Under the pieces are notes generated by a model, which saw only the letters and a list, made by a program, of their open reading frames with translations, did no database searches and was not told the DNA's origin. Made by a program: the position numbers and the translations under genes. Below are positions 3,295-34,346 of a DNA stretch of 64,000 bases, in pieces. The first letter of the stretch is position 1. The number at the start of each line of letters is the position of its first letter. The stretch covers positions 4,579 to 68,578 of IMG/VR virus record IMGVR_UViG_3300024955_000001, one strand, 5' to 3'. The DNA comes from a virus.

Positions 3295-3302
3295 TGGACA
3301 AA

Positions 3303-3314
3303 CCCTATACCGGG
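3303..3314 (-). repeat. late-region motif copy (minus: CCCGGTATAGGG)
   Basis: Abuts the TAA stop of the giant gene. 37 nt upstream of the next ATG. Confidence 0.6.
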
Positions 3315-6300
3315 TTACCCGTTCTCTCGTGCCATATCCCGCATCTGCTGGCGCAGCGCCTTGGGCGCCGTGTCTGCGATCCGGGCGGTGCGGTCCTTGC
3401 CCATTTCGCGCACGCGCTTCATCACGTCCGGGATCTTCACCACGATGGGCTGGTCTGGGTTGTTGCGGTTCCAGGCCGCCAGGCGGTCGCGCACCCGCTG
3501 CAGGGCATCGTCATCCTTCTCAAAGACAGCCTGCGCCCACTGCGCCTTGATGTCATTGCTGGTCTGGATGTAGAAGCTCTTGGAGCGCTGCATGAAGGAG
3601 TTGGCCTCCTGCACCTCTGCGACGGGCTTGGGCTGGAAGCCGATGGCCTTGGCAATCGCCTCGTCCAAGGTCGTGTCGATGACCTTGTAGCCCTTGGCGT
3701 CCTTGTAGATGCCGCTGGTCCCCATGTCGATGCCTTTGGCCAGGTTGCGCACCGCCGCTGGGGACACCTCCAGCGCCGCGCCGGCTACGTCGCCAGTCAG
3801 CAGCTTGCGCGCCCCAGTGAAGCCGCGCGCCACCAAGTCGCCCGCTGGGCCGGCCACCTCCAGCAGATCCCGCTCGCGGTTCTGCTTGGACAGCAGCAGG
3901 CCGGTACCGGGGATCAGGTTGCCCATGCCCAGGCGGCCCGACACGTCGATGGGGGCGCCAGGCAAGCCGGACACGCCCTGCTCCATGAAGTCGGCCAGCT
4001 CCTTGCCCACCACATCGCGCAGCGCCTGCTTGCGCCAGTGCTTGGTGCTGATGTTGTAGCCCATGAGCTGGCCGGCGCCGTCGATCAGATCCTCGGCGTC
4101 TTCCATGAACGGTAGGCCACCAGCACCACCCATCAGCAGCAGCATGGCCACTGCCCATCCCACAGCACGCTTGCCCTCGGGGCCTCCCTGTGTCCACATG
4201 CGGTGCATCAGCTCCAGATAGCTGACCGAATAGGTCTTGAAGGTGAACAGCGTTCCGCCGATGGTGCCGCGCGCCCACTTCGGCTTGTTGGCCTTGGAAT
4301 ACACGAACTGCGTTTCCTGCACGGCGCGCTCGGCAAACTTCGCCGGATCGGCCATGCCCTGCTCCTTGGCGATGCGATAGGCGGCAATGAAGGTGCTGCG
4401 GCGGTTGAACTGCTCGGCCAGGGCGAAGGGCTGGCCCCATGCCACCTTGACGCGCTCCCAGTTGTTGGCCGCCGCAGCGCGGGCGTCGCCCAGCTTGGTA
4501 CCGTCACCGGTGCGCAGCGAACCCGCGCCCCGGGCCTGCGCCATCAGCTGGTGGATTTCCTGGGGCGACACGATGCCCTCGGCCTCGGCCGTTTGCAGCG
4601 CCTTGGCCAGGTCTGGCTCGTAGCCGCTGCGGCGGGTCATGTCGCGCACTGCAGCAGCCAGGTGCGAGGCGGCGCTGCGCATGCCCCCGAACTGGGACAG
4701 CCAGGGCATGGTGATCTGGAATGGCTGGGTCATGTTGACCATGGCCGAAGCTACAGAGCCGCCCAGGTATTGCGCGAACAACATGCCGCGTACGGCTTGG
4801 CCTTCCTCCTGGGGATCTTGGATGTAACTGCGCAGGCCCATGGCCACGTCGCGCAGCTCGCCCTGCTCCTTCGGGATGCCCTCGATGGCGGTTTCCAGCG
4901 TGCCCGCGTTCAGCCCCCCGGCCGCCAGGCGGGCATTGGAGTACACGAAGCTGGCCAGCACCCGGCCCACGTCCTCGCTGTATCCGCTGATGCCCTTGCG
5001 GTGGATCAGGCGCTTGAGCGCGCTGTGGTTGTTCTTGGCCAGCTGCAGGTAGGCCTGGAATGCCTTGTCCTTCGGGTCCGTGCCCTCACCGCTCAGGCCC
5101 AGCATTTGGCCGAAGTGCTCAAGGCTTTCCGGGGTGATGCCCTGGAACAGCTTGAATGCCTCGTCGCTCATGGTGCCCTGGGTGACTGTCGCGCCAGGGA
5201 ATTCCTTCTCCATGGCGGCCTTCATCTTGTTGGACTCGTACATCGACTCAAACATGCCGAAATACTCGCGCGTGCCGTCCTTGCCCACCACGTCCACGGT
5301 GTAGCGGCCGAAGCGCGACAGCGGCGCGTAGCCGGCCTCCATCAGCGCCCGGGCGCGCTCGTAGCTCTTCACCACGGCGTTGTTCAGGCTCAGGATGCGG
5401 TCGGCCTGGTCGGGGGACTCGCGGGCTTCGGCCTGCAGCGTGTCCGTGATGAGCACCATCGCGTCTTCCACGGTGGCCTGGGCCAGGACCGCCTCGCGCA
5501 GATCGGCATAGCCGGCGCCCATGGCGCGCAGCATGTCGGCACGTGCGGTCATGTCCAGCGAGCGATCAATCGCGGCCCGCGCTTCCTGGTACAGGCTCAC
5601 CTGCTGGGCGTTCAGGCTGAACAAATCTTTCAGCTCTTTTTCACTCCAGATCACGCCCGGCTTGAGGATAGTGCTATCAAATTTGTTATTGATGATGGTG
5701 TTGTACTGATCCACCGGCAGGCCGCGCCACGCCTTGAGCATCTGCTCCTGGATCTTGCCGGTGCGCAGCAGGATCTGCGCCTTCTCATCAGGCGTGGTGT
5801 TGCGGTACTTCGCATTCAGGGCCTCGGTGGTCACGGGCGTGCCGTCCACATCGCGCGCCCACAGCAGCGTGCCCTCAAACAATGGCTTGGCCACAGCCTG
5901 GTTGTCGGCAGCGGTGATGGGCTTTTTCTTGAGGTCGGCCAGCGTCTCCACCCGGGGCAGCAGGCGCGGCGCGCGGTCGGCGGCGTCGTTGCCCAGCATG
6001 GACACGTCATCAATGAAACGCTGCGCCGCTTCGTACACCGGCTTGAACACCGGCGAGCGCTCGGCCAGGTTGCGCATGGTGCCCACGGTCTTGTCCCACA
6101 GAGACACCTTGCCAGGATGGGTCAGCGTCTGGTGGATCTGCGCCAGTGCACTGTCTTTCAGGTCGGCCGTGCTGGAACGGCTGAAACGGATATCCGGGTC
6201 AGCGCTGCCAGCGTCGCTTGCACGGCTCATCACCGGCTGGCCACCACGCGGCCCCCCGCCCGGCCCGCCGCGCACCACCCAGCCGCGTGCCGGCAGGATG

Positions 6301-9300
6301 TACGCTTGAATGATGTCGTTGTCCGTCAGGCGCAGACTTTGGAAGCCTGGCACGTGCTGGCGCAGGAAGTTGCGAATGGCGGAAATCGCCCGTTGCACAA
6401 AGGGCAGTTGGGGGGTCTTCTCGGCCATTTCTGCCAGAACTTCCTCAGCCGCTTCGCGCACGCTCAGGCTGTTCACCCCGCGCAGGCCGTATTCCCGCAT
6501 CTTGGCGGCAACCTCGGCTTTGCGCATGGTAGCAAGCTGGTTCAGCACCTGATCCAGGTCGCGGCCGAACTTGCCGCGCAGCCCGTGGTGGCCCAGCACC
6601 TCGTGGTACAGCACGCGCGCCGCGTCGTTGGGCGTGTTCAGGCGAGAGGCCATCAGGTAAGCCTTGCCACGGTAGTAGAAGCCCTCTGGCGCTCCGCGCG
6701 CACCGCCGCTGCGCTGGCGCAGGTCAGCATTTCGTGCAGCTTCGGGGATTCGCTGGTCCTGCATGTCGAAGGCCACCACCACCTCGGGCGCATTCGGGCC
6801 CCATGCGGCGCGGATGGCGTCCACTGTGCCGGACACTGAGGCGACAGCTTGGCGACGCGCGGCGTCGGAGTACACCGATGGTTGATCCATGGCCGCGAGG
6901 TAGGAGGCCATATCAAAATCGTCAGCCTGCGCAACACCAGCGGGAGCCTCGCGTCGGAATGCAGGCGCATCGCCCGCAGTTCCATCGCCCGCCTCGGATT
7001 CCTCGGGGGTCGTCGGGGCGGCACTTTGGGCCTTGCCTTCCAGCAGGCCCACCAGCTCACGCAGGCGCTCACGCTTGGCGGTCAGCTCCCCAGCCTTGGG
7101 GAACGTCTGGTTCAGCTGTTGGCGCAGCGCGGGCAGTTCTGCCTTCGCCCGCGCAAGCTGGCGCTCCAGGTAGTCAGTGCTGCTGTTGGCCAGGCGGCCA
7201 ATGTCATCGAACAGGTCTGTGACCAGGTTGCGCACGTTGGCCGGCACAACGGACTGGTTGACCGCGAACGAATTCAATCCCCGGCTGGTCACGGTGGCGC
7301 CGTCAGCGTCCACCAGCGACACCGAGGCGTCAATCTGGCCGCCACCCTTGCCGGTTTCGCGGGCCTGCGCGTCCAGCACCAGGTCATAGCCCAGCATGCT
7401 GCCCACGGTCGCGGTGCGCGAGTCGCCGGGCTGAATGCCCTTGGTCAGCTCGTTGAACTTGGCGGCCAGCTCACGCGCAGCAACGGTGTGCTGGGCGATC
7501 AGGCGCCCGTCAATGGTCACATCGAACAAGGATGAGTCACCAAGGGCAGCGCCAATCGCGGTGTCGATGCCGTCCTTGTTGGTCAGGCGCGCACCATCCA
7601 CAGAGATAGAGTACCGGGCCGTAGGCTTGCCGCCCTGCTGCTGCTCGATGGCCTCGTTCACGGCGGTCATCGCATCGCGCAGGTTGTCGTACTCCTTGCC
7701 CTCGATGGTCACACGGCGCTCTGCCTTGCGGGCGTCGGCCGCCTCCATGGCGGCGTTGGCCTTTTCCTTCTTGGCGCGCTCGTCGGCAATGCGGCCGGGA
7801 TTGCGCTCGATGGCGCGCTCCGCGCTCTCCACGGCATCCTCGATACCGAACATGCGGCGGCGGAATGCACGCTCCTGCAGCTCCAGCGTGGTGATCTCGG
7901 ATTCCGTCTTGACGCGCTCCAGCAGCAGGGGGTTGCCGGATGCCAGGGCCGCCATTTCGGCCATGCCCACGGCTTCCTCGTCATCGAACTCCATGGAAAA
8001 CGCGCCGTCGTACTTGCGAATGCCGTTGATGGTGCGCAGCTTGGTCGCGTTCAAGTCCCACATCTTGGCGTCCACCGTGCGCTCGGTGGCGTAGGCCAGG
8101 ATTTCCACCTCAAAGTCCGCGCGGAACATCGGGTTGGGCTTTTCAGCCGTTGGGGGCGTGCTGAACAGGTTACCTTGTCGGATCACCCGGCCCTCGCGCT
8201 GCTCGATGTCGCTGGGCTTCCAGGTCACGTCAACGTGGTGCAGAGCCACGGCACGCTGCTGCACGTTGGTACCTGCCCCCATGCGCGGGGTGGAGCCAAT
8301 CAGGACACGCACCTTGCCGCCGTTCACGCTGTCAAAGAGCGCGGCTTTCTGCTCATCGTTGTTGGCCTCCTGCACGAAGCGGATCTCGTTGGCCGGGATG
8401 CCAGTGGCGATCAGGTTGTCCTTGATCTGCTGGTAGGCGCTCCAGGGCGAGGTCTGCGCCTGGCGCAGCTCTGCAATCTCCCGGGGGTCGTAGCGGTCCA
8501 GGGCTTCCTGGGCTTCGTCAAAAGCCTCCTGGTCATCAGCGCGCAGCGCGGCGTCGCGCTTGGCCACCAAGTCGTCATAGGCCTTGATGATGGCGTCATC
8601 GCCCTTGGACTTCGGCACGGAACGGTCGAGGAACACCAGCTGCGTGCCCTGGTCGGCATCCCACTTGTCGTAGATGCGCTTGATGTTCTCGCTCACTACC
8701 TGCAGCTTCCCGCCTTCCTCGGTGCTGGTGCTGCGAGGGTCAACGGCGCGGATGTCCAGGGACAGCTTGCGCGCCCGGTCCATCAGGCGCAGGCGCTCGG
8801 CGTTGCGCTCATAGGGGTCTTCGATGCCGTCCAGGCCATCGAAGCCTTCCATCACATCTTTGAGGCCCTGCTCCTGGGCGGGGGTGGGCTTGATCGCCAC
8901 CAGGTTGCGGTCTTTGCCCCCTGCCACCTTCGGCACTGGGAACTCGCGGCCTGGATTGTCCTCGGCGTAGAAGCGCTTGATGTCATCCAGGCTCACCGCA
9001 TCGGTGACTTGGTAATACAAGTCCATCAGCGAACGCATGTTCGACCAGGTGCGGCCCAAGCGCGTGACCTGCTTGAGGCGGCCCGATTCGGTAGGCTCAA
9101 ACGCTGGCGTTGCCTCCACGAACTGCGCGCGGAAGGCATCGAAGTGGGACAGGCCCATGTCATCCAGCGAGTCGGCTGCCAGGTAGCGCAGCATCGTGAA
9201 CATTTCCACGGCGCTGTTGCTGATGGGCGTGCCCGTCAGGAAGGTGACGCTGCCCGTAGGCTGCTCGCGCAGCACGCGCACCTTGTTGTAAAGGTCGTTG

Positions 9301-12300
9301 GCCTTGCGCGATCCGGTCTTGTCGCCCATGCCACGCACACCCGTCAGGTTGGACGAGTAGTAGAGGTTCTTGAACTCGTGGGCTTCGTCCACGGTCAGGT
9401 CATCCACGCCCAGCTGCTCAAAGGTCAGCAGGCGGTCGCGCACGCCCTCTGCCAGGCGATCCATGCGGGCCTGAATCTTCTCGGCCAGGCGCTCGGCCTC
9501 CTTCACATTGAAGGGCTTGCGGCGCCCGTTGTCGGTACCGTCCTCGCGGGCCTGCTCCCAGGCGTCCTCGATGGCTGCCTGTGCCTGAGCCATTTCCAGC
9601 TCCAGGTAGCGGCTTTCCGTCTCCGGCGCAATGCCGATGAAGCCGAAGGACGAATGGGGCACGATCACGATGTCCCAGTCGCCCGTGGCGATCTTGCCGA
9701 ACAGGCGGCGGCGGCGCTTGGCCTCGAAATCCTTCTTGCCAGCGGCCAGCACCTTGGCGCCAGGGTACAGGCGGTACACATCGGCCGCCCACTGCTCCAC
9801 CAGGTGGTTGGGCACAGCCACCATGGGCTTGCGGGACAGGCCCATGCGGCGGCGCTCCATCGCGCGGGCGATGGCCGTGAAGGTCTTGCCGGCCCCCACG
9901 GCATGATCGACCAGCATGAAGCGCTCGTAGATGCCGCGCCAGATGGCATTCATTTGGTGGCGGCGCATCTTGAGGATGGCGTCCGGCACCTTACCGGGCA
10001 GCTGCAGGTGCTGGCCGTTGAACTGGCGCACCACGCGGGTGTTGAACTTCTCGTTGAACACGTCCACCAGGCGCTGGCGGCGCTCGCCGTTCTTGAAAAC
10101 CCAGTCGCCAAACTCGGCCTCGATCTCGCGCGCCTTGAGCCCGGCCAGGGCGGTGCGCTCCTTGTCGATGTAGGTGTTGCCGTCCGCGTCGCGGGCGGTG
10201 ACGGTCACGGCCTTGCTGTTCAGGATGCGGGTGATGATGTAGTCAGCTGGCGCACCCTCGCTGCTCCAGTTGGACATGCTGGTGCGCTCGGCGCCATCCA
10301 CGCTGACACTGAAACTGTTGGTCAGGGCCGAAAAGCTCACCCGCGCCTTGCCCCCCACCAGATGGCGCACGAAATCTGCATAGATCTCAGGGGGCACCCA
10401 GGTGGCGCCCATGGTCACGGCCACGTTCTCTGCGGTCCAGTCTGCGGGAATGATCTTTTCCAACGCCTCGGCGTTCTTGGTCATGCCAGCGGCGCGCGCT
10501 GCGTTCAGCTTGCGCTTGACCATGCCCGACAGGTAGGCGTCGGCCGTTTCCCACTGCCCCGTTTCAGGGTCTTTGAACACCAGCGGGTCGGCACCCTGCT
10601 GCAGCTGCTCGCCGGCCTGCTCTGGGCTGACGCCCAGCAGGTTGGCGATGCGCTCCATGTCCACGCGCCCAGATTCCGCCAGGGTGATTGCCAGGGCATC
10701 CGATGGAGTGGCGGCCTTGGTCGCTGGCTCATATTTGGGCACCACGCGCTCACGCAGGATAGGCGCTGGCGTGGCCTTCTCCTTCTGCGCCTCCAGCCCG
10801 GAGCGCGCGGCCTGCTCTGCAGTGCGCTCGGGTTGATAGTCCACCTCCAGCGCGGCTATCAGGCCGCCGTCCGGCATGGTCATCGCCAACTTCATGTTGG
10901 TGGAGCGCCCCACCGGTCCGTTGGCCTTCACGAATGCCTCGTAGGCAGCGGCCAGGCTCTTGCGGTTGCCCTCCATCACGGCGGGCACGGCGTCGGCGGT
11001 TTCCAGCACCAGCTGGCGTTTGAGCAGATCGCGCAGGCCGACCAGCCCGTTCAGGCGCTTCATGCCCAGCTTGCCAAGGCGCAGCTTTTCGGGCACGTCC
11101 TCGGGCTTGGCGTATACCTTGCGCTCGTACAGGTTCTTGCGCGTGGCCTCGCCCTTGGCGTTGGTCGCCTTGACGTTCTTGCCCTGCTCGTCCAGCACGG
11201 GCTCCAGAGAGTACCACTGGCCCTCCGCGTTCTGGCTCAGGGACTCGTGCCATGGGCTGTTCTCGTCAACATCCTGGTAGGCAAACTCGAAATCGCCCTC
11301 GGGTGTTTCGCGCTCAATCACGCGCTGCAGCTTCCCGTCAGGGGTAGCCTTGATGTGGCCGGCTTCCTCGTTGGCCACGGCAATGCGCAGCGCATCGCTC
11401 ATGGACTTATGGCGGGATGCAGTGGCGTCCAGCACATCCTGCTGGAAGTTCTGGATGCCCTCGGGCAGGCGCTGCACTGCCTCGCTCAGTAGCTTGCCCA
11501 GCTCGGCCGGGTTGTCCAGGCGCACGGTAATGTCGGCACCATGCTGCATGGAGCCGGAGCGCTCCATGACGCCCAGGACGTTCGCCGGGTTCTCCGCGAA
11601 ATAGGCGTTCACGTTCATGGGCTCGCCGCCCAGCGGATCGGGCACCTTGACCGTTTCGACCCAGGACGGCACCAGCGCGGCGGCGGCGGCGTCCGCGTCC
11701 TTCTTGTTGGCCTTGAGCTTGTTGTATTCCGTGATCGCGGCTTGCATCGCAGCCTGCTCGCCCGCATCCATTTTCTGGAAGATCAGGATGTCAGTCACCA
11801 CCTCCGTTCGGGCGTTCTCCTTGAATGCCGTATCTGGCAGGCGGATTGCGGCCACCAGGCGCGCCTGTGCGGCCAGCGCCAAGCGGCTGCTCTTGTCCTG
11901 CGCGTCCATCAGGAAGCGCGATACCACCATGGCCTGAATGCCGCCAGGGCGCAGCGCATCCATCCCGGCCCGGAAAAACTGGTTGTGGATCGACACGCCC
12001 TGCAGCTCGGGCTTGAACTGGAAGCGCAGAGACTCGCTGCCGAACGGCGGGTTGCCGATGTTCAGCATGAAAGCGTTGTCGGCCACCGGCACCTTCTGGA
12101 AGCCGGAATGCAGGACCGTCGCCTGCGGATACAGGGCCTGCCCGATGCGCGCGGTCAGGCTGTCGTATTCGACACCCACGAACCGATTGGGCATGTCCTT
12201 TGGCGCCAGGCCCAGGAAGTTGCCGGAGCCCATCGAGGACTCCAGCACGAGTCCTCCACGGTAGCCCAGGCGGCGCACCATGTCCCACATGGCCGACACC

Positions 12301-15300
12301 ACCGTCTGCGAGGTGTAGTGCGCGTTGCGGGTCGAACGACGCGCGGCGGTGTATTCCTCTTTGGTCAGCAGCTCGCGCAGTTCCTCACCGCGCGCCGTCC
12401 ACTTGTCCTTGAACTGGCCGGATGCGGGGTCGGGGAAAGCGTTGGCCAGGCCGCCCCAGCCCACATAGCGGGCCAGCATTGCCTGTTCTTCCGGTGTGGC
12501 GCGACGATTGGCCGCCTCGATGGCCTTGAGGGCGCGGATCGCGGCCAGGTTGTCATTGAACTTCTGAACCTCGCCACCCTTGCCCAGGCCCACCTCGTCG
12601 GTGATCTGGAAGTCGGCGGCGGGGATGTTAGGGGCGCTGGCCTCGCCCCCAGGGACAGCTACGCGCCCATCTGCTTGCGGTACTGGCTCTCCAGTTGCGC
12701 GAGTTCCTTGCGCTCCCACGGCTCCAGCTCGGCCTCGGGCTCGGGTTTTAGGAGCACGTACTGGCTCAGGGCCACTTCCTCCGCTTCGTGCTGGCGAAAG
12801 CCCTGCTCCATCAGCGACAGCACTTCCTGCTGCGCCTGCTTGCCCGCTGTCTGCAGCGCCTGCTCCAGCTCCCCGCTCGCCTTCAGCGCGGCTACCTTCT
12901 TGGGCAGCCACTGCGTCCAGTGCTTGCGGGCTCTCGCTTCGTACAGTTGTGCGCTCATCGCTGGGGTTCTCCTGCTGTGCATTATCGGCCTCGGCCTGGT
13001 CGGCAGCAACAACCGCCTCGTGTTGTTCAATCTCGGCCTTCGTCTCCACGTCGATGACCGCGCGCTTGGTATCCGCGCCCGTCTTGCCCCCCGCCATTGC
13101 GATGTAGGCGCCCTGCAGGTGATCCAGCGTCAGCGCATCGGCCGCGTCGTCGCCCAGGTTTGCGCGGATCTGATCCAAGGCGAACTTGGCCGAATCCTTG
13201 AACTTGTGGTATCCCAGGCGGAATGCGGCATCCAGCACGCGTGTGAGCACTGGCAGCAGCTTTTGCTCCTGCTCGGGCACGATGTTCATGCGGGTGCCCT
13301 TGCCAAGGATGTCGCCCAGGTCGGCCAGGGCGTTCATCAGATCGGCCTGCGCGCGCACCTGATCGGCGCTGGGCTTCTTGGCAGTAGCAGGGGCCTTATT
13401 TGCTACTGAATTGGTAGCTACTGGAGCTTCTTTGGTGCTGGTACCGGCCTGATTCTCATCAGAAACATTGATGGCTTTTTCTGCGGCTGGCGCTGGGCTG
13501 GCAGCAGGCTTGGCCGCCTCGCTCTCGGCCGCCGTCATGAACTCGGGTTTCAGCTCGCCGCGCGACACCTGCATGCCCTGGCGCGTGGGGCGCAGGGACA
13601 CGGTTTCCTCGATGCGCACGCCGCCCTGGGCGTACCAGCGCACGCCGTTCTTGTCCTGGCGGATCATCACGCCGTCAGCGCGGCGGCCGACGATGGTGTT
13701 TCCGTCCTTGTCCGCTTCTGAATTAATAGCTGCTGGAGCAATAACGGCGCCGGTATTGGGCTGTTCCTTCTCTTTGTCCTGGCGGGTTACGGCGGCGGGG
13801 GCTGCGGTGGGCACAGCTTCGCCCGTAGGTGCCGTGTTGGCGGGGAGAAAAGAACGTTCGCCATTCGCCTTCTCGGCGGTCACAACGCCATCGCGCTCCA
13901 TGCGATCCATCAGCGCATTGACTTCGCCAAAGCCGATGCCCAGCGCAGCCTGAATAGCAGGGCGATTCACAGCGCCGGCGCTGCGCACCAACTCCACAGC
14001 CTTTGTGTAGGTCGCATCGTCCTTAGCGCCGGGCTCCATCGCAACCGCCAGCTTGCGCTGCACATCGCGGTTCAGGTCAGCCCACGCTGCGCGGTGGACG
14101 TTCTTGCGCACGATGGGCTTGAGATCCGCGCGCTGGGCCAGGGCCTGGCGTTCGGCCGTGGGCATGCGCGTCCAAGCATCGCCAGTGCTGGCTACGCGCT
14201 GAGCAGGGCCTTCTGCTTGCGGCGCAGCTTGCGCGCTTGGCGCTGGCGCCGTTTGCGCTCCAGGGTTCGCAGTCGGGGCGCCATCGGTCAGGCCTGCAGC
14301 GGCTGCTTGCTGCGCGCCATTCGCGCCTGGGCGTCCTTGAGCATCTGGTGCTCCACGTGCGACTGCTGGCGCTGCTCCGACTTGCGACGGTTGCGCGCTA
14401 CCTTGCTGGGCTTGGGCGGCTTGAGGGCCATTGCGGTTTCCTTCTGTGGTTGCGGGAATGGTCAGATCAGCCGGCACTGGACCAGCGTCTTCGGTGAGGG
14501 AGGCAAAAGCGGCATCGGCGCGCTCTGCGCCGGGCACGCTGGCGCGCTGCTCTGCATCCAGCTCGGCCTGCAGCTCCTGCTGCTCACGCAGCGCACGGCG
14601 GCGGCCCAGCTCCTGGGCCAGTTGCATGCGGACCTCGCGCGACTGAGCGCCGCGGAAGGTGTTGGACAACTGGGCATCGCTCCAGCTCTCCATGGGCGAG
14701 CCCGGCGAAATTTCGCCAGTTTCCTGGTTTACGCCTTGCTGCGTGAGCGCTGGCTGCTCTTGTTTTTGATTGCCTTGGGCAGTTTTTTTGCCTTGCTTTT
14801 GCGCTACCTCGGCAGCCTGGGCCAGCGCAGCGGCCTGCTGCACTTGGTCTGAGGCGCCGGTATCGACAGCCAGCGCGGCACTGGCCGACAGTGGGCCGGC
14901 AGCAGGGTCCAAGCCCATGGCCACGGAGCGCGGCACGGTCGCACCGGTGGACTGGTAAATCTCATCGTCAGGGCTTTGCACGGCGCGCGAGGCATCCATG
15001 GCAGCCTGGCGCTGCTCGGCGGCCTGGGCCTGCTGCTGCGCCAGCGCTGCCGCGCCATCGGGAGGCGCGGTCTGGGGCACGTTGGGATCGCCTTGCTCCT
15101 GCTGCTGCAGCGCCGCCAGTTGGGCGGCAAATGCCTGCTGGATACGCTCCATGCCGAGGTTGGGCGGCGCGGCGCCGGCGTCAGTGGGTGCGGCACCAGG
15201 TTGCTCGGAAGGCGACGCACCTGGTTCCGCTTTCGGCTGCTTGAAGCCGTGATAGCCGGAAGCTGCGCCACCCATGGCGCCGCCCGACAGCACGCCCATG

Positions 15301-16220
15301 ACCGCTGCGGAATCCACATCCGTCAGCCAGTCCTTGCCAAGCGCCACGTTCTGGAAGATTTGCTCGGCCACGGACTGCGGCAGCTCTTCCAGGAAACCCT
15401 CGGAGATCGCGCCCTCAATCACGCGGCGCGGAATGCTCTTGGCAGCCGCTTGCTGCACCAGAGGATTGACGGCGGCGGTAGCGGCATCGTCAGCGTTCTG
15501 CTTCGCCATGCCCTTGGTGCCCTGGGCCAGCATGGTTTCGGCGTCACCGATACCCAACTTGTTGGCCACGCGGCCGCCCAGCACGCCGAAGCCCGCCGTG
15601 GCCACGCCGGTTGCCGCTGCGAGCGCGGCCTGGGTGGGGGTCAGCAGCCCATCGGGAGTTTCCTGGCGGATCTGCTCGGCTGCGGAACCAGCTGCGGTGA
15701 TGCCTTCGCCGGCCGCGCCCGCCAATGCAGCACCAGCGGCGCCCATCTGGCCCAGCTTTGTCGCGGCCATGAGTCCTCGCGCAGCGACGCCCCCAGCGCC
15801 CATGCTGGGCAACGACTCACCAACGGCCGTCGCAATGAGGCTGGGGTTCTGAACGGCTGTAACGGCCTTGTCCACGATGCCATTGGCATCCTGAAACTTG
15901 CGTTGCGCCTCCTTGGTAGCGTCGGAGTGCCAGTCGTTGGCGATTTCCTTGGCCTGCTTGGGGCGAAAGCCCACAGAGCCACCCTCGTTCTCCAGGAACT
16001 TGCCCACCTCGCCGCCCGTGGGAATGTCGGCAATACCAACCAGGGCCTCGGGCACGCCAATGGCGCCCTTGACAGCTGTGGCAGCAACGTCCTTGATGGT
16101 GCCGCTCAGCGTACGCTTCGGCGAATCCGCTGCACCATCGAACTGGTCAAAGTAGTTCTTTCCTTTGCCACCCGGGCCGGCAGTTGAGGGGTCGAATTGA
16201 TCAAAGAAGTTGGAGCTCAT
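3315..16220 (-). CDS. giant polyvalent virion protein (DarB-like: N6-adenine methyltransferase + SNF2/DEAH helicase + zincin-like motif + PLxRFG membrane module)
   Basis: Single 4301-codon ORF. Motifs read directly: RYVGWGG (aa 1250), NPPFG (aa 1390), GAGKT (aa 2109), DEAH (aa 2278), QREGRVIRQGN (aa 2674), LYHEVLGHHG (aa 3204), APLSRFG (aa 3632). N- and C-terminal regions are Gly/Ala-rich and hydrophobic. Confidence 0.85.
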   Translation of the reverse strand: MSSNFFDQFDPSTAGPGGKGKNYFDQFDGAADSPKRTLSGTIKDVAATAVKGAIGVPEALVGIADIPTGGEVGKFLENEGGSVGFRPKQAKEIANDWHSDATKEAQRKFQDANGIVDKAVTAVQNPSLIATAVGESLPSMGAGGVAARGLMAATKLGQMGAAGAALAGAAGEGITAAGSAAEQIRQETPDGLLTPTQAALAAATGVATAGFGVLGGRVANKLGIGDAETMLAQGTKGMAKQNADDAATAAVNPLVQQAAAKSIPRRVIEGAISEGFLEELPQSVAEQIFQNVALGKDWLTDVDSAAVMGVLSGGAMGGAASGYHGFKQPKAEPGASPSEQPGAAPTDAGAAPPNLGMERIQQAFAAQLAALQQQEQGDPNVPQTAPPDGAAALAQQQAQAAEQRQAAMDASRAVQSPDDEIYQSTGATVPRSVAMGLDPAAGPLSASAALAVDTGASDQVQQAAALAQAAEVAQKQGKKTAQGNQKQEQPALTQQGVNQETGEISPGSPMESWSDAQLSNTFRGAQSREVRMQLAQELGRRRALREQQELQAELDAEQRASVPGAERADAAFASLTEDAGPVPADLTIPATTEGNRNGPQAAQAQQGSAQPSQVGAAPAVARGAPDAQGRPGANGAQQAAAAGLTDGAPTANPGAQTAPAPSAQAAPQAEGPAQRVASTGDAWTRMPTAERQALAQRADLKPIVRKNVHRAAWADLNRDVQRKLAVAMEPGAKDDATYTKAVELVRSAGAVNRPAIQAALGIGFGEVNALMDRMERDGVVTAEKANGERSFLPANTAPTGEAVPTAAPAAVTRQDKEKEQPNTGAVIAPAAINSEADKDGNTIVGRRADGVMIRQDKNGVRWYAQGGVRIEETVSLRPTRQGMQVSRGELKPEFMTAAESEAAKPAASPAPAAEKAINVSDENQAGTSTKEAPVATNSVANKAPATAKKPSADQVRAQADLMNALADLGDILGKGTRMNIVPEQEQKLLPVLTRVLDAAFRLGYHKFKDSAKFALDQIRANLGDDAADALTLDHLQGAYIAMAGGKTGADTKRAVIDVETKAEIEQHEAVVAADQAEADNAQQENPSDERTTVRSESPQALDAVAAQEGSRAEGERGAGAGAADSGQAGAAGSAVADGAGLSPARSGGSGPEPVRAPKTRARGRAGAVGAQGTRATGEPVPQADGRVAVPGGEASAPNIPAADFQITDEVGLGKGGEVQKFNDNLAAIRALKAIEAANRRATPEEQAMLARYVGWGGLANAFPDPASGQFKDKWTARGEELRELLTKEEYTAARRSTRNAHYTSQTVVSAMWDMVRRLGYRGGLVLESSMGSGNFLGLAPKDMPNRFVGVEYDSLTARIGQALYPQATVLHSGFQKVPVADNAFMLNIGNPPFGSESLRFQFKPELQGVSIHNQFFRAGMDALRPGGIQAMVVSRFLMDAQDKSSRLALAAQARLVAAIRLPDTAFKENARTEVVTDILIFQKMDAGEQAAMQAAITEYNKLKANKKDADAAAAALVPSWVETVKVPDPLGGEPMNVNAYFAENPANVLGVMERSGSMQHGADITVRLDNPAELGKLLSEAVQRLPEGIQNFQQDVLDATASRHKSMSDALRIAVANEEAGHIKATPDGKLQRVIERETPEGDFEFAYQDVDENSPWHESLSQNAEGQWYSLEPVLDEQGKNVKATNAKGEATRKNLYERKVYAKPEDVPEKLRLGKLGMKRLNGLVGLRDLLKRQLVLETADAVPAVMEGNRKSLAAAYEAFVKANGPVGRSTNMKLAMTMPDGGLIAALEVDYQPERTAEQAARSGLEAQKEKATPAPILRERVVPKYEPATKAATPSDALAITLAESGRVDMERIANLLGVSPEQAGEQLQQGADPLVFKDPETGQWETADAYLSGMVKRKLNAARAAGMTKNAEALEKIIPADWTAENVAVTMGATWVPPEIYADFVRHLVGGKARVSFSALTNSFSVSVDGAERTSMSNWSSEGAPADYIITRILNSKAVTVTARDADGNTYIDKERTALAGLKAREIEAEFGDWVFKNGERRQRLVDVFNEKFNTRVVRQFNGQHLQLPGKVPDAILKMRRHQMNAIWRGIYERFMLVDHAVGAGKTFTAIARAMERRRMGLSRKPMVAVPNHLVEQWAADVYRLYPGAKVLAAGKKDFEAKRRRRLFGKIATGDWDIVIVPHSSFGFIGIAPETESRYLELEMAQAQAAIEDAWEQAREDGTDNGRRKPFNVKEAERLAEKIQARMDRLAEGVRDRLLTFEQLGVDDLTVDEAHEFKNLYYSSNLTGVRGMGDKTGSRKANDLYNKVRVLREQPTGSVTFLTGTPISNSAVEMFTMLRYLAADSLDDMGLSHFDAFRAQFVEATPAFEPTESGRLKQVTRLGRTWSNMRSLMDLYYQVTDAVSLDDIKRFYAEDNPGREFPVPKVAGGKDRNLVAIKPTPAQEQGLKDVMEGFDGLDGIEDPYERNAERLRLMDRARKLSLDIRAVDPRSTSTEEGGKLQVVSENIKRIYDKWDADQGTQLVFLDRSVPKSKGDDAIIKAYDDLVAKRDAALRADDQEAFDEAQEALDRYDPREIAELRQAQTSPWSAYQQIKDNLIATGIPANEIRFVQEANNDEQKAALFDSVNGGKVRVLIGSTPRMGAGTNVQQRAVALHHVDVTWKPSDIEQREGRVIRQGNLFSTPPTAEKPNPMFRADFEVEILAYATERTVDAKMWDLNATKLRTINGIRKYDGAFSMEFDDEEAVGMAEMAALASGNPLLLERVKTESEITTLELQERAFRRRMFGIEDAVESAERAIERNPGRIADERAKKEKANAAMEAADARKAERRVTIEGKEYDNLRDAMTAVNEAIEQQQGGKPTARYSISVDGARLTNKDGIDTAIGAALGDSSLFDVTIDGRLIAQHTVAARELAAKFNELTKGIQPGDSRTATVGSMLGYDLVLDAQARETGKGGGQIDASVSLVDADGATVTSRGLNSFAVNQSVVPANVRNLVTDLFDDIGRLANSSTDYLERQLARAKAELPALRQQLNQTFPKAGELTAKRERLRELVGLLEGKAQSAAPTTPEESEAGDGTAGDAPAFRREAPAGVAQADDFDMASYLAAMDQPSVYSDAARRQAVASVSGTVDAIRAAWGPNAPEVVVAFDMQDQRIPEAARNADLRQRSGGARGAPEGFYYRGKAYLMASRLNTPNDAARVLYHEVLGHHGLRGKFGRDLDQVLNQLATMRKAEVAAKMREYGLRGVNSLSVREAAEEVLAEMAEKTPQLPFVQRAISAIRNFLRQHVPGFQSLRLTDNDIIQAYILPARGWVVRGGPGGGPRGGQPVMSRASDAGSADPDIRFSRSSTADLKDSALAQIHQTLTHPGKVSLWDKTVGTMRNLAERSPVFKPVYEAAQRFIDDVSMLGNDAADRAPRLLPRVETLADLKKKPITAADNQAVAKPLFEGTLLWARDVDGTPVTTEALNAKYRNTTPDEKAQILLRTGKIQEQMLKAWRGLPVDQYNTIINNKFDSTILKPGVIWSEKELKDLFSLNAQQVSLYQEARAAIDRSLDMTARADMLRAMGAGYADLREAVLAQATVEDAMVLITDTLQAEARESPDQADRILSLNNAVVKSYERARALMEAGYAPLSRFGRYTVDVVGKDGTREYFGMFESMYESNKMKAAMEKEFPGATVTQGTMSDEAFKLFQGITPESLEHFGQMLGLSGEGTDPKDKAFQAYLQLAKNNHSALKRLIHRKGISGYSEDVGRVLASFVYSNARLAAGGLNAGTLETAIEGIPKEQGELRDVAMGLRSYIQDPQEEGQAVRGMLFAQYLGGSVASAMVNMTQPFQITMPWLSQFGGMRSAASHLAAAVRDMTRRSGYEPDLAKALQTAEAEGIVSPQEIHQLMAQARGAGSLRTGDGTKLGDARAAAANNWERVKVAWGQPFALAEQFNRRSTFIAAYRIAKEQGMADPAKFAERAVQETQFVYSKANKPKWARGTIGGTLFTFKTYSVSYLELMHRMWTQGGPEGKRAVGWAVAMLLLMGGAGGLPFMEDAEDLIDGAGQLMGYNISTKHWRKQALRDVVGKELADFMEQGVSGLPGAPIDVSGRLGMGNLIPGTGLLLSKQNRERDLLEVAGPAGDLVARGFTGARKLLTGDVAGAALEVSPAAVRNLAKGIDMGTSGIYKDAKGYKVIDTTLDEAIAKAIGFQPKPVAEVQEANSFMQRSKSFYIQTSNDIKAQWAQAVFEKDDDALQRVRDRLAAWNRNNPDQPIVVKIPDVMKRVREMGKDRTARIADTAPKALRQQMRDMARENG
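3318..6300 (-). other. C-terminal PLxRFG-type module with transmembrane segments
   Basis: APLSRFG at nt 5307-5324. Hydrophobic helices (e.g. AVGWAVAMLLLMGGAGGLPF) lie near the C-terminus, typical of ejected internal virion proteins. Confidence 0.5.
8150..9970 (-). other. SF2 (SNF2/DEAH) helicase module of giant protein
   Basis: Walker A GAGKT (nt 9882-9896), DEAH (nt 9378-9389), TGTPISNS, and motif VI QREGRVIRQGN (top nt 8201). Confidence 0.8.
11540..12650 (-). other. N6-adenine DNA methyltransferase module of giant protein
   Basis: ADFQITDEVGLGKGG...RYVGWGGLANAFPD...LESSMGSGNFLG (motif I-like)...NIGNPPFG (motif IV, nt 12039-12053). Confidence 0.8.
12659..12958 (-). CDS. embedded 99-codon ORF in +1 frame of the giant gene (hypothetical small protein)
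   Basis: ATG 12958 with AGGAG 10 nt upstream. MSAQLYEARARKHWTQWLPKKVAALKASGELEQ...QYRKQMGA has K/E/Q/W-rich, protein-like composition. My hand count gives GC3 ~86% in this frame versus ~37% for the giant frame over the same 300 nt. Confidence 0.45.
   Translation of the reverse strand: MSAQLYEARARKHWTQWLPKKVAALKASGELEQALQTAGKQAQQEVLSLMEQGFRQHEAEEVALSQYVLLKPEPEAELEPWERKELAQLESQYRKQMGA
13866..14009 (-). other. winged-helix segment of giant protein (FtsK-gamma-like)
   Basis: aa ~738-785, YTKAVELVRSAGAVNRPAIQAALGIGFGEVNALMDRMERDGVVT, resembles the FtsK gamma / wHTH DNA-binding fold. By-eye resemblance only. Confidence 0.3.
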
Positions 16221-19105: not shown

Positions 19106-19161
19106 GGGGACTCCTTTATTCATCTGGCCGGATTGTTGACACCAGCCAGGGGCCCGCAAAG

Positions 19162-34336: not shown

Positions 34337-34346
34337 GGTCGTCGCC

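What the first reader, a model, noticed from the sequence alone, without database searches (positions are those of the whole stretch)
3315..16220. 12.9-kb single ORF: polyvalent, probably capsid-packaged anti-restriction protein with unassigned N-terminal third
One uninterrupted ORF occupies 20% of the window, between ejection-protein and tail-fibre genes. Motifs read by eye give this order: a hydrophobic Gly/Ala N-terminus with two FDQFD motifs; ~600 aa of A/Q/P linkers; a wHTH resembling FtsK-gamma (aa ~738-785); a gamma-class N6-adenine MTase (RYVGWGG, SGNFLG, NPPFG); an SF2/SNF2 helicase (GAGKT, DEAH, QREGRVIRQGN); LYHEVLGHHG (zincin-like?); and PLSRFG plus C-terminal TM helices. This fits established knowledge of DarB-type and polyvalent proteins of phages and conjugative elements, which are injected with the DNA to blunt restriction. 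About 1100 N-terminal residues and the 2700-3150 region have no function I can name.
Basis: partly seen in the sequence, partly recalled or inferred. Interest (0 to 1): 0.7.

Follow-up and report, generated by a model that had tools for sequence, protein, structure and literature searches.

The report
Giant injected anti-restriction phage protein
This is a real 4,301-residue gene of a temperate phage of Acidovorax-like bacteria, a new member of the known family of giant "DarB-like / PLxRFG" proteins that are packed into the phage head and injected with the DNA; it is not a new kind of system.

Summary
The ORF is real: 3315..16220 on the minus strand, 4,301 codons, ATG start. It is intact over about 4,200 aligned codons at 91% identity in an independent Acidovorax genome, with dN/dS 0.14.

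- An FtsK-gamma-like wHTH.
- An EcoKI/TaqI-like N6-adenine methyltransferase.
- A SWI2/SNF2 ATPase.
- A conserved HExxxH block. A zincin fold could not be shown for it.
- A C-terminal PLxRFG domain (NCBIfam NF032893, 793 bits).

The gene lies last in the head/internal-protein module of a temperate F116/8P-like podophage. Homologues (JC1 gp69; Bcep22 gp75 as cited) are virion proteins by mass spectrometry. It is therefore a new member of a known kind: a polyvalent, injected DarB-type protein.

What the tools added:
- The N-terminal ~330 residues, and the last ~1,200 residues (HExxxH block plus PLxRFG), recur across relatives. The middle varies: MTase-helicase here; ART, MuF_C, PBECR, InPase and LPD domains elsewhere.
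- The PLxRFG module models as an all-alpha fold with no PDB match.
- The protein has no cysteine, and relatives are nearly cysteine-free (0.011% in 95 giant proteins).

Homology to T7 gp16 was tested and not established.

The parts
3315..16220 (-). Whole giant ORF: 4301 aa plus stop, ATG start.
   Evidence: Intact orthologue in Acidovorax sp. NB1 with dN/dS 0.136.
16116..16220 (-). Extreme N-terminus (aa 1-35) with two FDQFD motifs (aa 6-10 and 24-28). Candidate capsid-targeting signal (inferred).
   Evidence: Homologues also carry a duplicated short aromatic/acidic motif here, such as FSYEE x2, KPWE(E/A)F x2 and FDQFD x2. The N-terminal 30 aa of P1 DarB are a capsid-targeting signal (PMC9024508).
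15231..16115 (-). Conserved Gly/Ala-rich N-terminal module (aa ~36-330). Motifs include GVPE..VG.ADI.TGG.VGK and EGAISEGFLEELPQS. Function unknown; proposed to be part of the delivery or packaging apparatus.
   Evidence: phrog_30335. 71 homologues and alignment A2. Present in 8P, F116 p59 and Atu_ph08 and in Bcep22 gp75 (hhalign probability 97.5%). dN/dS 0.13. No Pfam match.
14031..15230 (-). A/Q/P/G-rich low-complexity linker (aa 331-730). It holds a conserved short motif, MGLDPAAGPLSASAALAVDTGA (aa 435-456, nt 14853-14918).
   Evidence: Composition. Conserved with 8P to aa 730. dN/dS 0.13.
13851..14024 (-). FtsK-gamma-like winged helix-turn-helix (aa 733-790), predicted to bind dsDNA. This is a variable cassette.
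   Evidence: Pfam PF09397, E 3.5e-7, 30.3 bits (cut-off 30.6). PDB FtsK gamma 2j5o and 2ve8, E 5e-4. Only 39% identical in the otherwise 91%-identical NB1 orthologue.
12981..13433 (-). Conserved helical domain of unknown function (aa ~930-1080), common in giant polyvalent proteins.
   Evidence: Exhaustive search with aa 731-1200: 249 clusters at E<=1e-3, nearly all matching this stretch, mostly proteins of 3000-6500 aa. No Pfam match.
11421..12653 (-). Gamma-class N6-adenine DNA methyltransferase of EcoKI/TaqI type (aa 1190-1600). Features: GLGKGG 1211-1216, TP cap (ATPEE 1241-1245), motif I SGNFLG 1332-1337 and motif IV NPPFG 1390-1394.
   Evidence: Alignment A4 with invariant G..G.F and N.PF. 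Profile against PDB: EcoKI M 1.2e-9, BsaXI 5e-8, TaqI 1e-7. P1 DarB E 2e-18. dN/dS 0.04.
10104..11420 (-). Conserved bridge between MTase and helicase (aa 1601-2039), part of the DarB-like block.
   Evidence: phrog_10089, phrog_11801 and phrog_1685 cover it. BLASTP to 8P, Atu_ph08, LASTA and PEp14 from aa 1721. dN/dS 0.07.
8061..10103 (-). SWI2/SNF2-type SF2 ATPase/translocase (aa 2040-2720). Motifs: GAGKT 2109, DEAH 2278, TGTP 2329 and QREGRVIRQGN 2674.
   Evidence: Alignment A5 with all motifs invariant, P1 DarB included. Profile against PDB: SMARCAD1 4e-9, ISWI 4e-8, SsoRad54 1.6e-7, RapA. Weak Pfam matches to SNF2-rel, ResIII and Helicase_C. dN/dS 0.045.
6954..8060 (-). Post-helicase extension (aa 2721-3089). 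Conserved with other DarB-like giants to about aa 2900; after that, specific to close relatives.
   Evidence: phrog_10089 reaches aa 3140. BLASTP ends at aa 2805-2905. Homologue hits with aa 2860-3335 cover only 14-53% of that query, and an aa 3090-3335 alignment of 26 of them is well conserved. dN/dS 0.10.
6216..6953 (-). Conserved HExxxH block (aa 3090-3335): HEVLGHH 3206-3212 and AAEEVLAE 3257-3264. Candidate zincin-like autoprocessing peptidase.
   Evidence: Alignment A3: H, E and H nearly invariant. The motif is kept in 47 of 51 matched stretches, on 50 genomic ORFs, always upstream of PLxRFG. AF2 pLDDT 81.8 with topology helix, strand, helix, two strands, then the HExxxH helix. No Foldseek or profile match in PDB. 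hhalign to the P1 DdrB peptidase region gives probability 4%.
3318..6215 (-). C-terminal all-alpha module containing the PLxRFG domain (aa 3336-4301): PLSRFG 3633-3638 (nt 5307-5324) and the hydrophobic hairpin aa ~3982-4040.
   Evidence: NCBIfam NF032893, 793 bits against a cut-off of 100. 184 homologues. AF2 pLDDT 77.7, pTM 0.69. No PDB fold match. BFVD matches to C-termini of other polyvalent proteins and to 'internal virion protein D' of phages CRP-4 and CRP-5. Hydropathy.
17150..19159 (-). Upstream 669-aa gene, syntenic partner of the giant gene and probable internal virion/ejection protein. One Cys.
   Evidence: BLASTP to F116 p58 and 8P_022, the genes directly upstream of the giant genes there. 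phrog_11341. Cys count.
19208..21055 (-). 615-aa gene, probable internal virion protein. No Cys.
   Evidence: phrog_10969. BLASTP to F116 p57. Cys count.

Best explanation
The ORF encodes a virion-packaged, host-injected 'polyvalent' protein of a temperate F116/8P-like podophage (free or integrated) of an Acidovorax-like Comamonadaceae host. It is built as beads on a string.

Delivery parts (inferred role):
- An N-terminal tandem FDQFD signal plus a conserved Gly/Ala-rich module.
- A C-terminal ~1,200-residue block: an HExxxH domain followed by the all-alpha PLxRFG module.

Cargo between them:
- An FtsK-gamma-like dsDNA-binding wHTH.
- A helical domain of unknown function.
- A DarB-type dyad: an EcoKI/TaqI-like N6-adenine methyltransferase fused to a SWI2/SNF2 translocase.

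Proposed mechanism:
1. The protein is loaded into the procapsid, with the N-terminus acting as a targeting signal as in P1 DarB.
2. At infection it is threaded, largely unfolded, through the portal/tail channel with the other internal proteins. The low-complexity linkers and the complete absence of cysteine suit this step.
3. The C-terminal module's hydrophobic hairpin engages the inner membrane or the ejectosome.
4. In the cytoplasm the SNF2 motor tracks along the entering phage DNA. The methyltransferase modifies or occludes it in cis, blunting type I (and perhaps other) restriction before any phage gene is expressed.
5. The HExxxH domain may cut the polyprotein into working pieces.

Shown here: the ORF, its domains and their catalytic motifs, purifying selection, synteny, and family membership. 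Inferred: packaging, ejection, membrane engagement, anti-restriction and autoprocessing.
For: - ORF reality and selection.
- Phage structural context. [quoted passage not shown] A CI-like repressor, Erf and Ant mark a temperate phage.
- Family membership. PHROG 10089 'DarB-like antirestriction' at 1593 bits. tblastn to the giant genes of 8P (47%), USP_25, PEp14, PBC5, Atu_ph08 and LASTA. Synteny of the upstream genes with F116 p57/p58 and 8P_022.
- Catalytic modules. The MTase profile hits EcoKI M and TaqI, with motifs I and IV invariant. The helicase profile hits the SNF2 family, with motifs I, II, III and VI invariant. Direct alignment to P1 DarB. dN/dS is 0.04-0.045 on both.
- Virion association of homologues. 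JC1 gp69 gave 51 unique peptides in CsCl-purified virions, and that paper cites the same for Bcep22 (PMC9144972). P1 DarB is a head protein with an N-terminal capsid-targeting signal (PMC9024508). The N-module is shared with Bcep22 gp75 (hhalign 97.5%).
- Recurring end modules with varied cargo. The PLxRFG and HExxxH blocks lie next to MuF_C, ART-PolyVal, LPD1/3, InPase, PBECR3 (scanned), PBECR1 by precomputed Pfam accession, and RadC. Of 47 complete PLxRFG ORFs in bacterial genomes, 23 start with the N-module. Only 14 of all 82 PLxRFG ORFs carry the MTase-helicase.
- Cysteine exclusion. 0 of 4,301 residues against 1.08% in the other 46 ORFs of the window (P about 5e-21). 0.011% in 95 giant relatives, 67 of which have none.
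- Analogy. The N4 vRNAP 'beads-on-a-string' model for threading a giant protein through the tail (PMC13434306).
Against: - No experiment bears on this protein. Packaging, ejection and anti-restriction rest on homologues that are 21-47% identical.
- P1 DarB needs partner proteins (DarA, Hdf, DdrA, DdrB, Ulx). None was identified here.
- The MTase did not reach Pfam thresholds as a single sequence.
- The zincin assignment has no fold or profile support.
- The PLxRFG module models as a compact soluble helical domain with only one moderately hydrophobic segment, so membrane insertion is conjecture.
- Homology to T7 gp16 was not established.
- Bcep22 gp75, one of the MS-verified homologues, lacks a detectable PLxRFG domain. 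That module is therefore not required for packaging in every giant protein.
Confidence: 0.72

Rival explanations
1. The protein is primarily an essential structural ejection protein, the functional counterpart of T7 gp16 / P22 gp16. It would build the inner-membrane end of the DNA conduit. The enzymatic domains would be dispensable passengers.
For: - It is the last and largest gene after two Cys-poor internal-protein genes and lies before tail-fibre-like genes, the same order as T7 gp14-15-16-17.
- Foldseek matches the C-terminal module to proteins annotated 'internal virion protein D' in phages CRP-4 and CRP-5 (E 1.6e-8 and 3e-6).
- hhalign places the only hydrophobic hairpin (aa 3982-4092) on T7 gp16 residues 1096-1196, overlapping its putative TMH II at 1119-1290 (E 0.0014; PMC8954989).
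- Relatives Pavtok and Stean are annotated as transglycosylases.
- The end modules recur widely while the middle differs between relatives.
Against: - The gp16 link weakened with a six-member gp16 profile (probability 0.6%, E 0.09).
- Foldseek and profile searches of the PDB listed no ejection protein: no Foldseek match at E <= 0.001 and none named among the 50 shown, and one unrelated profile hit.
- No lytic transglycosylase domain is present in this protein.
- The MTase and helicase are the most strongly constrained parts (dN/dS 0.04), which does not fit dispensable passengers.
- This rival does not exclude the best explanation.
Confidence: 0.35
2. The MTase-helicase cargo is not an anti-restriction device. 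It would serve another early function, such as epigenetic marking of the phage genome for its own regulation or packaging, countering non-R-M defences (BREX, DISARM, Dnd-like), or attacking or excluding competing elements.
For: - The SNF2 lobes resemble defence-system helicases (DrmD, PbeA, BrxH) at weak scores.
- The phage encodes a second, separate DNA methyltransferase at 60414-62171, so methylation by the giant protein need not be the protective one.
- Iyer et al. note that polyvalent domains may also act in superinfection conflicts (PMC5512222).
Against: - The only member of the dyad family with genetics, P1 DarB, protects against type I restriction in cis (PMC5512222; PMC9024508).
- The MTase is of the EcoKI/TaqI type, the class used by type I systems.
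- Delivering the enzyme together with the DNA makes most sense for a function needed before gene expression.
Confidence: 0.2
3. The ORF is an artefact: a pseudogene, a fusion made by assembly error, or a non-coding open frame of a GC-rich sequence.
For: High-GC DNA yields long spurious ORFs, and several of 400-1200 aa overlap this one on the other strand. F116's homologue is annotated as two genes, p59 and p60.
Against: - GC3 is 0.81 in this frame.
- HMM matches run along the whole length.
- The orthologue in an independent genome is intact and under purifying selection in every segment.
- Single ORFs of 4,433-5,145 aa occur in 8P, Bcep22, PEp14, LASTA and Atu_ph08.
Confidence: 0.01

Closest known systems
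Phage P1 DarB (2,255 aa), the archetypal 'defence against restriction' head protein
   Same: It has the same dyad in the same order: a gamma-class EcoKI/TaqI-like N6A MTase (27% identity, E 2e-18; the NPPF/NVPF motif aligns) followed by a SWI2/SNF2 ATPase with motifs I, II, III and VI conserved. DarB is packaged in the head, has an N-terminal targeting signal, and is believed to enter the cell (PMC9024508).
   Different: P1 is a myovirus. DarB is half the size, has 9 cysteines, and lacks both the N-module and the PLxRFG module. It also depends on separate partner proteins (DarA, Hdf, DdrA, DdrB, Ulx), and no homologue of these was noticed in the window. The putative peptidase sits on a separate protein in P1 (DdrB) but inside the giant protein here.
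Giant proteins of Pseudomonas phages 8P (8P_023, 5,145 aa) and F116 (p59 + p60)
   Same: These are the closest characterised genomes. 8P shares the N-terminal 700 aa (40%), the MTase, the helicase and the last 1,120 aa (53%). F116 shares the N-module (48%) and the PLxRFG module (58%). The upstream genes are also shared. All are temperate podophage-type genomes.
   Different: F116 carries a different middle: ART-PolyVal (PF18760) and PF18838 by precomputed Pfam accession. It is annotated as two ORFs. 8P is 844 aa longer. The FtsK-gamma cassette was not seen in either alignment. There is no nucleotide-level similarity.
Bcep22 gp75 / JC1 gp69 (Lessievirus, 4,515-4,602 aa) and PEp14 gp27 / Pavtok gp27 / LASTA gp01 ('DarB-like antirestriction', PHROG 10089)
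   Same: They share the MTase-helicase block (31-40% identity over 1,100-1,600 aa), the position at the end of the morphogenesis module, a cysteine-free composition, and in Bcep22 the N-module. JC1 gp69 was found in purified virions by mass spectrometry, and that paper cites the same for Bcep22 (PMC9144972).
   Different: Bcep22 gp75 has no detectable PLxRFG domain. PEp14, LASTA and Atu_ph08 have it at only 24-27% identity. Pavtok and Stean carry a transglycosylase annotation that is absent here.
T7 gp16 (internal virion protein D) and other podophage ejection proteins
   Same: It is a large, mostly alpha-helical internal protein encoded after smaller internal-protein genes and before the tail fibre. 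It has a C-terminal hydrophobic region and must unfold to pass the tail channel (PMC8954989). There is a weak local alignment of the hydrophobic hairpins.
   Different: Homology is not established. This protein has no transglycosylase domain and is three times larger, with enzymatic cargo.
Phage N4 virion RNA polymerase gp50 (~3,500 aa)
   Same: It is a giant, single-chain, encapsidated and ejected enzyme made of loosely connected domains ('beads on a string'). Its terminal domains have roles other than the central catalysis (PMC13434306; PMC5512222 also notes a zincin-like domain there).
   Different: The cargo differs (an RNA polymerase, not an MTase-helicase), and no sequence relationship was seen.

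Membership tests
DarB-type MTase-SNF2 dyad of polyvalent proteins (Iyer et al. 2017) | EcoKI/TaqI-like gamma-class N6-adenine MTase with AdoMet motif I before NPP(Y/F) motif IV | tested here: met
   SGNFLG (aa 1332-1337) precedes NPPFG (aa 1390-1394). Both are invariant across 7 homologues, P1 DarB included. Profile hits EcoKI M at 1.2e-9 and TaqI at 1e-7.
DarB-type MTase-SNF2 dyad of polyvalent proteins (Iyer et al. 2017) | N-terminal helix capped by a TP motif | tested here: met
   ATPEE at aa 1241-1245. The T is invariant in alignment A4. The feature is as described in PMC5512222.
DarB-type MTase-SNF2 dyad of polyvalent proteins (Iyer et al. 2017) | SWI2/SNF2-clade SF2 ATPase fused C-terminal to the MTase | tested here: met
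   GAGKT, DEAH, TGTP and QREGRxxRxG are invariant. The profile hits SMARCAD1, ISWI, SsoRad54, INO80 and RapA.
DarB-type MTase-SNF2 dyad of polyvalent proteins (Iyer et al. 2017) | LPD36 four-helix domain with a GxG[GAS] motif N-terminal to the MTase | tested here: inconclusive
   GLGKGG (aa 1211-1216), conserved as GKGG in relatives, lies just upstream of the MTase. No LPD36 model was available for comparison.
DarB-type MTase-SNF2 dyad of polyvalent proteins (Iyer et al. 2017) | Packaged in the virion, injected, and protective against type I restriction in cis | not testable with these tools
   Only homologue data exist: P1 DarB (PMC9024508) and MS of JC1 virions, with Bcep22 cited there (PMC9144972).
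PLxRFG domain-containing proteins (NCBIfam NF032893 'tail-700') | HMM score above the curated cut-off | tested here: met
   793.3 bits against a cut-off of 100, covering aa 3630-4289 and profile positions 2-680 of 681.
PLxRFG domain-containing proteins (NCBIfam NF032893 'tail-700') | PLxRFG signature, at the C-terminus of a very long protein | tested here: met
   PLSRFG at aa 3633-3638. P, L, R and G are invariant in 43 sequences. The domain ends 12 residues before the stop.
PHROG 10089 giant 'DarB-like antirestriction' virion proteins of podophages | Profile match, and position as last gene of the morphogenesis module after internal-virion-protein genes | tested here: met
   1593 bits. Gene order and upstream-gene homology with F116 and 8P. 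The same layout holds in Bcep22, PEp14 and LASTA.
Zincin-like metallopeptidase of polyvalent proteins (HEXXXH clade) | Conserved HEXXXH plus a downstream helix bearing Glu | tested here: met
   H3206, E3207 and H3211 are nearly invariant, and AAEE.LAE (aa 3257-3264) is conserved. The motif is kept in 47 of 51 matched stretches. Which Glu would be the ligand is inferred.
Zincin-like metallopeptidase of polyvalent proteins (HEXXXH clade) | Zincin fold: a three-stranded sheet packed on the active-site helices | tested here: inconclusive
   The AF2 model (pLDDT 81.8) has three strands preceding the HExxxH helix. Foldseek against PDB gives a best E of 0.95, the profile against PDB finds nothing, and hhalign to P1 DdrB gives probability 4%.
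FtsK gamma wHTH (Pfam PF09397) | Pfam gathering score | tested here: inconclusive
   30.3 bits against a cut-off of 30.6, E 3.5e-7, profile positions 2-59 of 63. Independent phmmer hits to FtsK gamma structures 2j5o and 2ve8 at E 5e-4.
T7 gp16-type internal virion protein D | Sequence or fold homology to gp16 | tested here: inconclusive
   hhalign to T7 gp16 gives E 0.0014 but probability 17.6%. A gp16 family profile gives probability 0.6%. No PDB fold or profile hit. Foldseek does hit BFVD entries named 'internal virion protein D'.
T7 gp16-type internal virion protein D | N-terminal lytic transglycosylase domain (T7-like members) | tested here: not met
   No SLT or lysozyme family appears in the Pfam, PHROG or NCBIfam scans of the whole protein.

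The most novel reading that the evidence does not exclude
The N-terminal module (tandem acidic/aromatic signal plus Gly/Ala-rich domain) and the C-terminal HExxxH + PLxRFG block together form a conserved, cysteine-free protein-delivery chassis. It would be an ejectosome component that phages of Burkholderiales and other Proteobacteria use to inject interchangeable enzymatic cargo. The PLxRFG module would be a previously unrecognised, structurally novel counterpart of gp16-type inner-membrane ejection proteins. The near-total exclusion of cysteine would be a selected requirement for threading multi-thousand-residue chains through the tail and the oxidising periplasm.
Probability: 0.35. Interest if true: 0.55.

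Novelty: new member of a known kind. Interest (0 to 1): 0.33.

Why it matters
For annotation, this gene can be named with confidence as a DarB-like, PLxRFG-domain polyvalent virion protein. It marks the window as a temperate F116/8P-like phage of an Acidovorax-like host.

More broadly, these are among the largest bacterial virus proteins, taking up a fifth of the genome. Yet apart from P1 DarB the family has only virion proteomics. No function has been tested for the PLxRFG module, the N-module or the HExxxH block.

Two patterns seen here give concrete handles for experiments on how phages push megadalton-scale proteins through a channel of about 35 A. One is the recurring end modules with differing middles. 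The other is the near-absolute lack of cysteine, in this protein and in 67 of 95 giant relatives. The same patterns bear on engineering phages as protein-delivery vehicles. None of this makes the locus itself a new kind of system.

Tried and rejected
- **Megablast of the ORF against phage genomes:** no match. A 25-kb neighbouring stretch gave only short terminase hits. The phage is therefore not a sequenced isolate.
- **Single-sequence searches:** Pfam and PDB searches detect only FtsK-gamma and weak helicase lobes. Profiles were needed for the MTase and helicase.
- **Foldseek of the PLxRFG model against PDB:** best E 0.13, weak matches to ABC transporters and other large, mostly helical proteins; rejected as chance. 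The profile against PDB found nothing relevant.
- **T7 gp16 homology:** a suggestive single-sequence hhalign hit did not survive a six-member gp16 profile, so it is not claimed. The N-module against T7 gp15 and gp16 gave nothing.
- **Zincin fold:** Foldseek, the PDB profile search and hhalign to P1 DdrB were all negative. It is kept only as a motif-level hypothesis.
- **PLxRFG in Bcep22 gp75:** not detected by hmmsearch or hhalign.
- **Pfam on the isolated unassigned segments** (aa 1-340, 790-1200, 2860-3335): nothing meaningful.
- **Exact-sequence look-up of the protein in public assemblies:** not on record.
- **Tandem repeats inside the ORF:** none. tRNA scan of the window: none.
- **tblastn of the opposite-strand ORF 16311-17153 against phages:** no match.
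- **The aa 930-1080 helical domain as LPD36:** considered and not adopted. It also occurs in giant proteins in which the local MTase/helicase profiles found no match at E <= 1e-5, and it lacks the exact GxG[GAS] motif.
- **Papers not available:** Gill et al. 2011 (Bcep22) and Piya et al. 2017 (P1 Dar) were not in the library.

Full report
**1. The observation**

The window contains one uninterrupted ORF at 3315..16220 on the minus strand: 4,301 codons with an ATG start. It occupies 20% of the window.
- At about 65% GC, roughly 2.5% of random codons would be stops. By my own arithmetic an open run of this length then has a chance of about e^-109.
- The frame shows the coding signature of this genome: GC3 0.81, GC2 0.47. 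The long ORFs on the opposite strand are the usual shadows of a GC-rich gene.
- Homologues align from M1, which supports the start. There are no tandem repeats.
- Acidovorax sp. NB1 (L022) carries the same ORF, open to the edge of the fetched locus. It gives 4,198 aligned codons at 91% amino-acid identity and dN/dS 0.136. Every segment is under purifying selection: MTase 0.04, helicase 0.045, PLxRFG 0.10, N-module 0.13, linker 0.13.

**2. Context**

The minus strand from about 37 kb down to 0.3 kb is a phage morphogenesis module. In order it holds:
- several unassigned virion-type genes;
- two Cys-poor genes of 615 and 669 aa;
- the giant gene;
- small ORFs and tail-fibre-like genes.

The plus-strand half carries a CI-like repressor, an Erf recombinase, an exonuclease and a separate DNA methyltransferase. 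An anti-repressor lies on the minus strand. This is therefore a temperate phage, free or integrated.

The 669- and 615-aa genes are homologous to F116 p58/p57 and 8P_022, the genes that precede the giant genes in those phages.

No sequenced phage is close at the nucleotide level. The nearest C-terminal modules come from Acidovorax genomes (96% and 94%) and other Comamonadaceae. That points to an Acidovorax-like host.

**3. Anatomy, N to C**

- **aa 1-35.** Two FDQFD motifs. Homologues also carry a duplicated short aromatic/acidic motif here, though its sequence differs.
- **aa ~36-330.** A conserved Gly/Ala-rich module (phrog_30335; 71 homologues).
  - It has no Pfam match.
  - It is shared with 8P, F116 p59 and Atu_ph08.
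  - By profile comparison it is also shared with Bcep22 gp75 (probability 97.5%).
- **aa 331-730.** A/Q/P/G-rich linker with a conserved island, MGLDPAAGPLSASAALAVDTGA.
- **aa 733-790.** An FtsK-gamma-like wHTH.
  - Pfam gives 30.3 bits, 0.3 below the gathering score. FtsK-gamma structures match at E 5e-4.
  - The cassette is only 39% identical in the otherwise 91%-identical NB1 orthologue.
- **aa ~930-1080.** A helical domain found in 249 clusters, mostly proteins of 3,000-6,500 aa. Its function is unknown.
- **aa 1190-1600.** An N6-adenine methyltransferase.
  - Motif I precedes motif IV, and the TP cap is present. All are invariant in relatives, P1 DarB included.
  - A family profile hits EcoKI HsdM, BsaXI and TaqI.
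- **aa 2040-2720.** A SWI2/SNF2 ATPase with motifs I, II, III and VI invariant. Profile hits go to SMARCAD1, ISWI, SsoRad54, INO80 and RapA.
- **aa 2721-3089.** A post-helicase extension, conserved among DarB-like giants to about aa 2900.
- **aa 3090-3335.** A block with nearly invariant HExxxH and a conserved Glu-rich helix.
- **aa 3336-4301.** A module containing NCBIfam's PLxRFG domain, at 793 bits against a cut-off of 100.

**4. The two structure predictions**

*The C-terminal module* (43-sequence alignment) gave mean pLDDT 77.7 and pTM 0.69. It is almost entirely helical.
- Foldseek found nothing in the PDB (best E 0.13). A profile search of PDB sequences found nothing either.
- In BFVD it matched 60 entries at E<=1e-3. 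Those listed are mostly the C-terminal pieces of other polyvalent proteins, named MTase, helicase, ART or LPD; LT_GEWL once. They also include 'internal virion protein D' of roseophages CRP-4 and CRP-5.
- I therefore tested a link to T7 gp16. hhalign placed the only clearly hydrophobic hairpin (aa 3982-4092; hydropathy peak at 4020-4038) on gp16 residues 1096-1196. That stretch overlaps gp16's putative TMH II (PMC8954989). The probability was only 17.6%, and it fell to 0.6% with a six-member gp16 profile. I do not claim homology.

*The HExxxH block* modelled well (pLDDT 81.8) with three strands ahead of the motif helix.
- Foldseek, a PDB profile search and hhalign to the P1 DdrB peptidase region were all negative.
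- It fits the 'HEXXXH' clade of polyvalent-protein metallopeptidases described by Iyer et al. (PMC5512222), but only at motif level.

**5. Family picture**

tblastn and BLASTP place the protein among the giant 'DarB-like' proteins:
- 8P (5,145 aa), USP_25 and F116;
- PEp14 and Pavtok (4,914 and 5,007 aa), LASTA and Atu_ph08;
- PBC5 and Bcep22 (4,602 aa).

Two of these bear on packaging. JC1 gp69 was found in CsCl-purified virions by mass spectrometry, and that paper cites the same for Bcep22 (PMC9144972). P1 DarB is a head protein whose first 30 residues target cargo to the capsid (PMC9024508).

The ends and the middle of these proteins behave differently. The PLxRFG and HExxxH blocks occur next to many other polyvalent cargo domains:
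- MuF_C, ART-PolyVal, LPD1, LPD3, InPase, PBECR3 and RadC, all confirmed by the Pfam scan;
- PBECR1, known here only from a precomputed Pfam accession.

In 80 bacterial genome loci I found 47 complete PLxRFG ORFs of 506-4,286 aa (median 2,825). Twenty-three of them start with the N-module. Only 14 of all 82 PLxRFG ORFs carry the MTase-helicase. So the end modules recur and the middle is swapped between relatives.

**6. Cysteine**

The protein has no cysteine. The other 46 ORFs of the window average 1.08%, which gives P about 5e-21.
- Counts in relatives: Bcep22 gp75, PEp14 gp27 and LASTA gp01 have none, Atu_ph08 has 1, 8P has 2, and P1 DarB has 9.
- In 82 PLxRFG ORFs from genomes the frequency is 0.03%.
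- In 95 giant relatives it is 0.011%, and 67 of them have none.
- The neighbouring putative internal proteins are also Cys-poor.

I read this as selection against disulfide or metal trapping in a chain that must unfold, pass the tail channel and cross the periplasm. That is an inference. Two ejection-protein papers, opened for other reasons, do not contain the word cysteine; that is not a literature check.

**7. Mechanism**

The best-supported reading is an injected polyvalent protein with a DarB-type anti-restriction cargo, carried by conserved N- and C-terminal delivery modules. A possible autoprocessing peptidase sits between them. The beads-on-a-string layout is like that proposed for N4 vRNAP (PMC13434306).
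- Shown here: the domains, their motifs, purifying selection, synteny and family membership.
- Inferred: packaging, ejection, membrane engagement, restriction protection and cleavage.

The main rival is that the protein is first of all an essential ejectosome component. That is compatible with the best reading, and gene order and the BFVD matches partly support it.

**8. Verdict**

The zincin assignment is unproven, and the 'TM helices' are a single hydrophobic hairpin.

The gene is a new member of a known kind, already captured by PHROG 10089 and NCBIfam NF032893. Interest is modest. The most novel defensible reading concerns the family rather than this locus: a conserved cysteine-free delivery chassis whose C-terminal module has no PDB fold match.

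Noticed in passing
window 16311-17153 (+), in the 930-bp gap between the 669-aa gene and the giant gene: An opposite-strand 280-aa ORF with low GC (0.55; GC3 0.57 against about 0.8 elsewhere) and three hydrophobic TM-like segments. It contains NHFDQFD, the same FDQFD pentapeptide that occurs twice at the giant protein's N-terminus. These are the only three FDQFD in all six frames. At the DNA level this is a 21-nt, 90% inverted repeat (16138-16158 / 16715-16735). It could be a moron-type membrane protein, possibly for superinfection exclusion by motif mimicry, or it could be chance. There is no PHROG hit, only sub-threshold Pfam matches (E 0.006 and 0.03, both far below the gathering score), and no phage tblastn match.
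   Followed up: partly
window 3315-16220 (-) and relatives (L004-L007, L008-L087, P0226-P0375): Cysteine is completely absent from the 4,301-aa protein and nearly absent from the whole family: 0.011% in 95 giant relatives, 67 of them with none. P1 DarB, by contrast, has 9.
   Followed up: yes
window 13851-14024 (-), aa 731-800: The FtsK-gamma-like cassette is only 39% identical to the corresponding stretch of the Acidovorax sp. NB1 orthologue, which is otherwise 91% identical. aa 801-1190 also show relaxed constraint (dN/dS 0.41). This looks like a local hot spot of cassette replacement.
   Followed up: partly
window 14853-14918 (-), aa 435-456: A short conserved island, MGLDPAAGPLSASAALAVDTGA, lies inside the low-complexity linker and recurs in many homologues. 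It may be a docking or cleavage motif.
   Followed up: no
window 17138-17165: A 14+14-nt near-perfect palindrome lies exactly where the convergent ORFs 16311-17153 (+) and 17150-19159 (-) meet. It is a candidate bidirectional terminator.
   Followed up: no
window 60414-62171 (+): A second, separate DNA methyltransferase gene (585 aa; phrog_116 and phrog_23072) lies in the early region. The phage therefore has two methyltransferases with presumably different timing.
   Followed up: no
window 34347-36287 (-) and 32048-34522 (-): The large-terminase ORF overlaps the portal ORF by 176 nt as listed, so the portal's true start is probably downstream of the listed ATG (the profile match starts at aa 92). 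The small- and large-terminase ORFs also overlap by 200 nt.
   Followed up: no
L002 (phage F116, NC_006552) 3564-14925: F116's homologue is annotated as two adjacent genes. p59 carries the N-module and p60 carries ART-PolyVal plus PLxRFG. They are separated by 22 nt, whereas relatives have a single ORF. This is either a real split or a sequencing or annotation frameshift.
   Followed up: no
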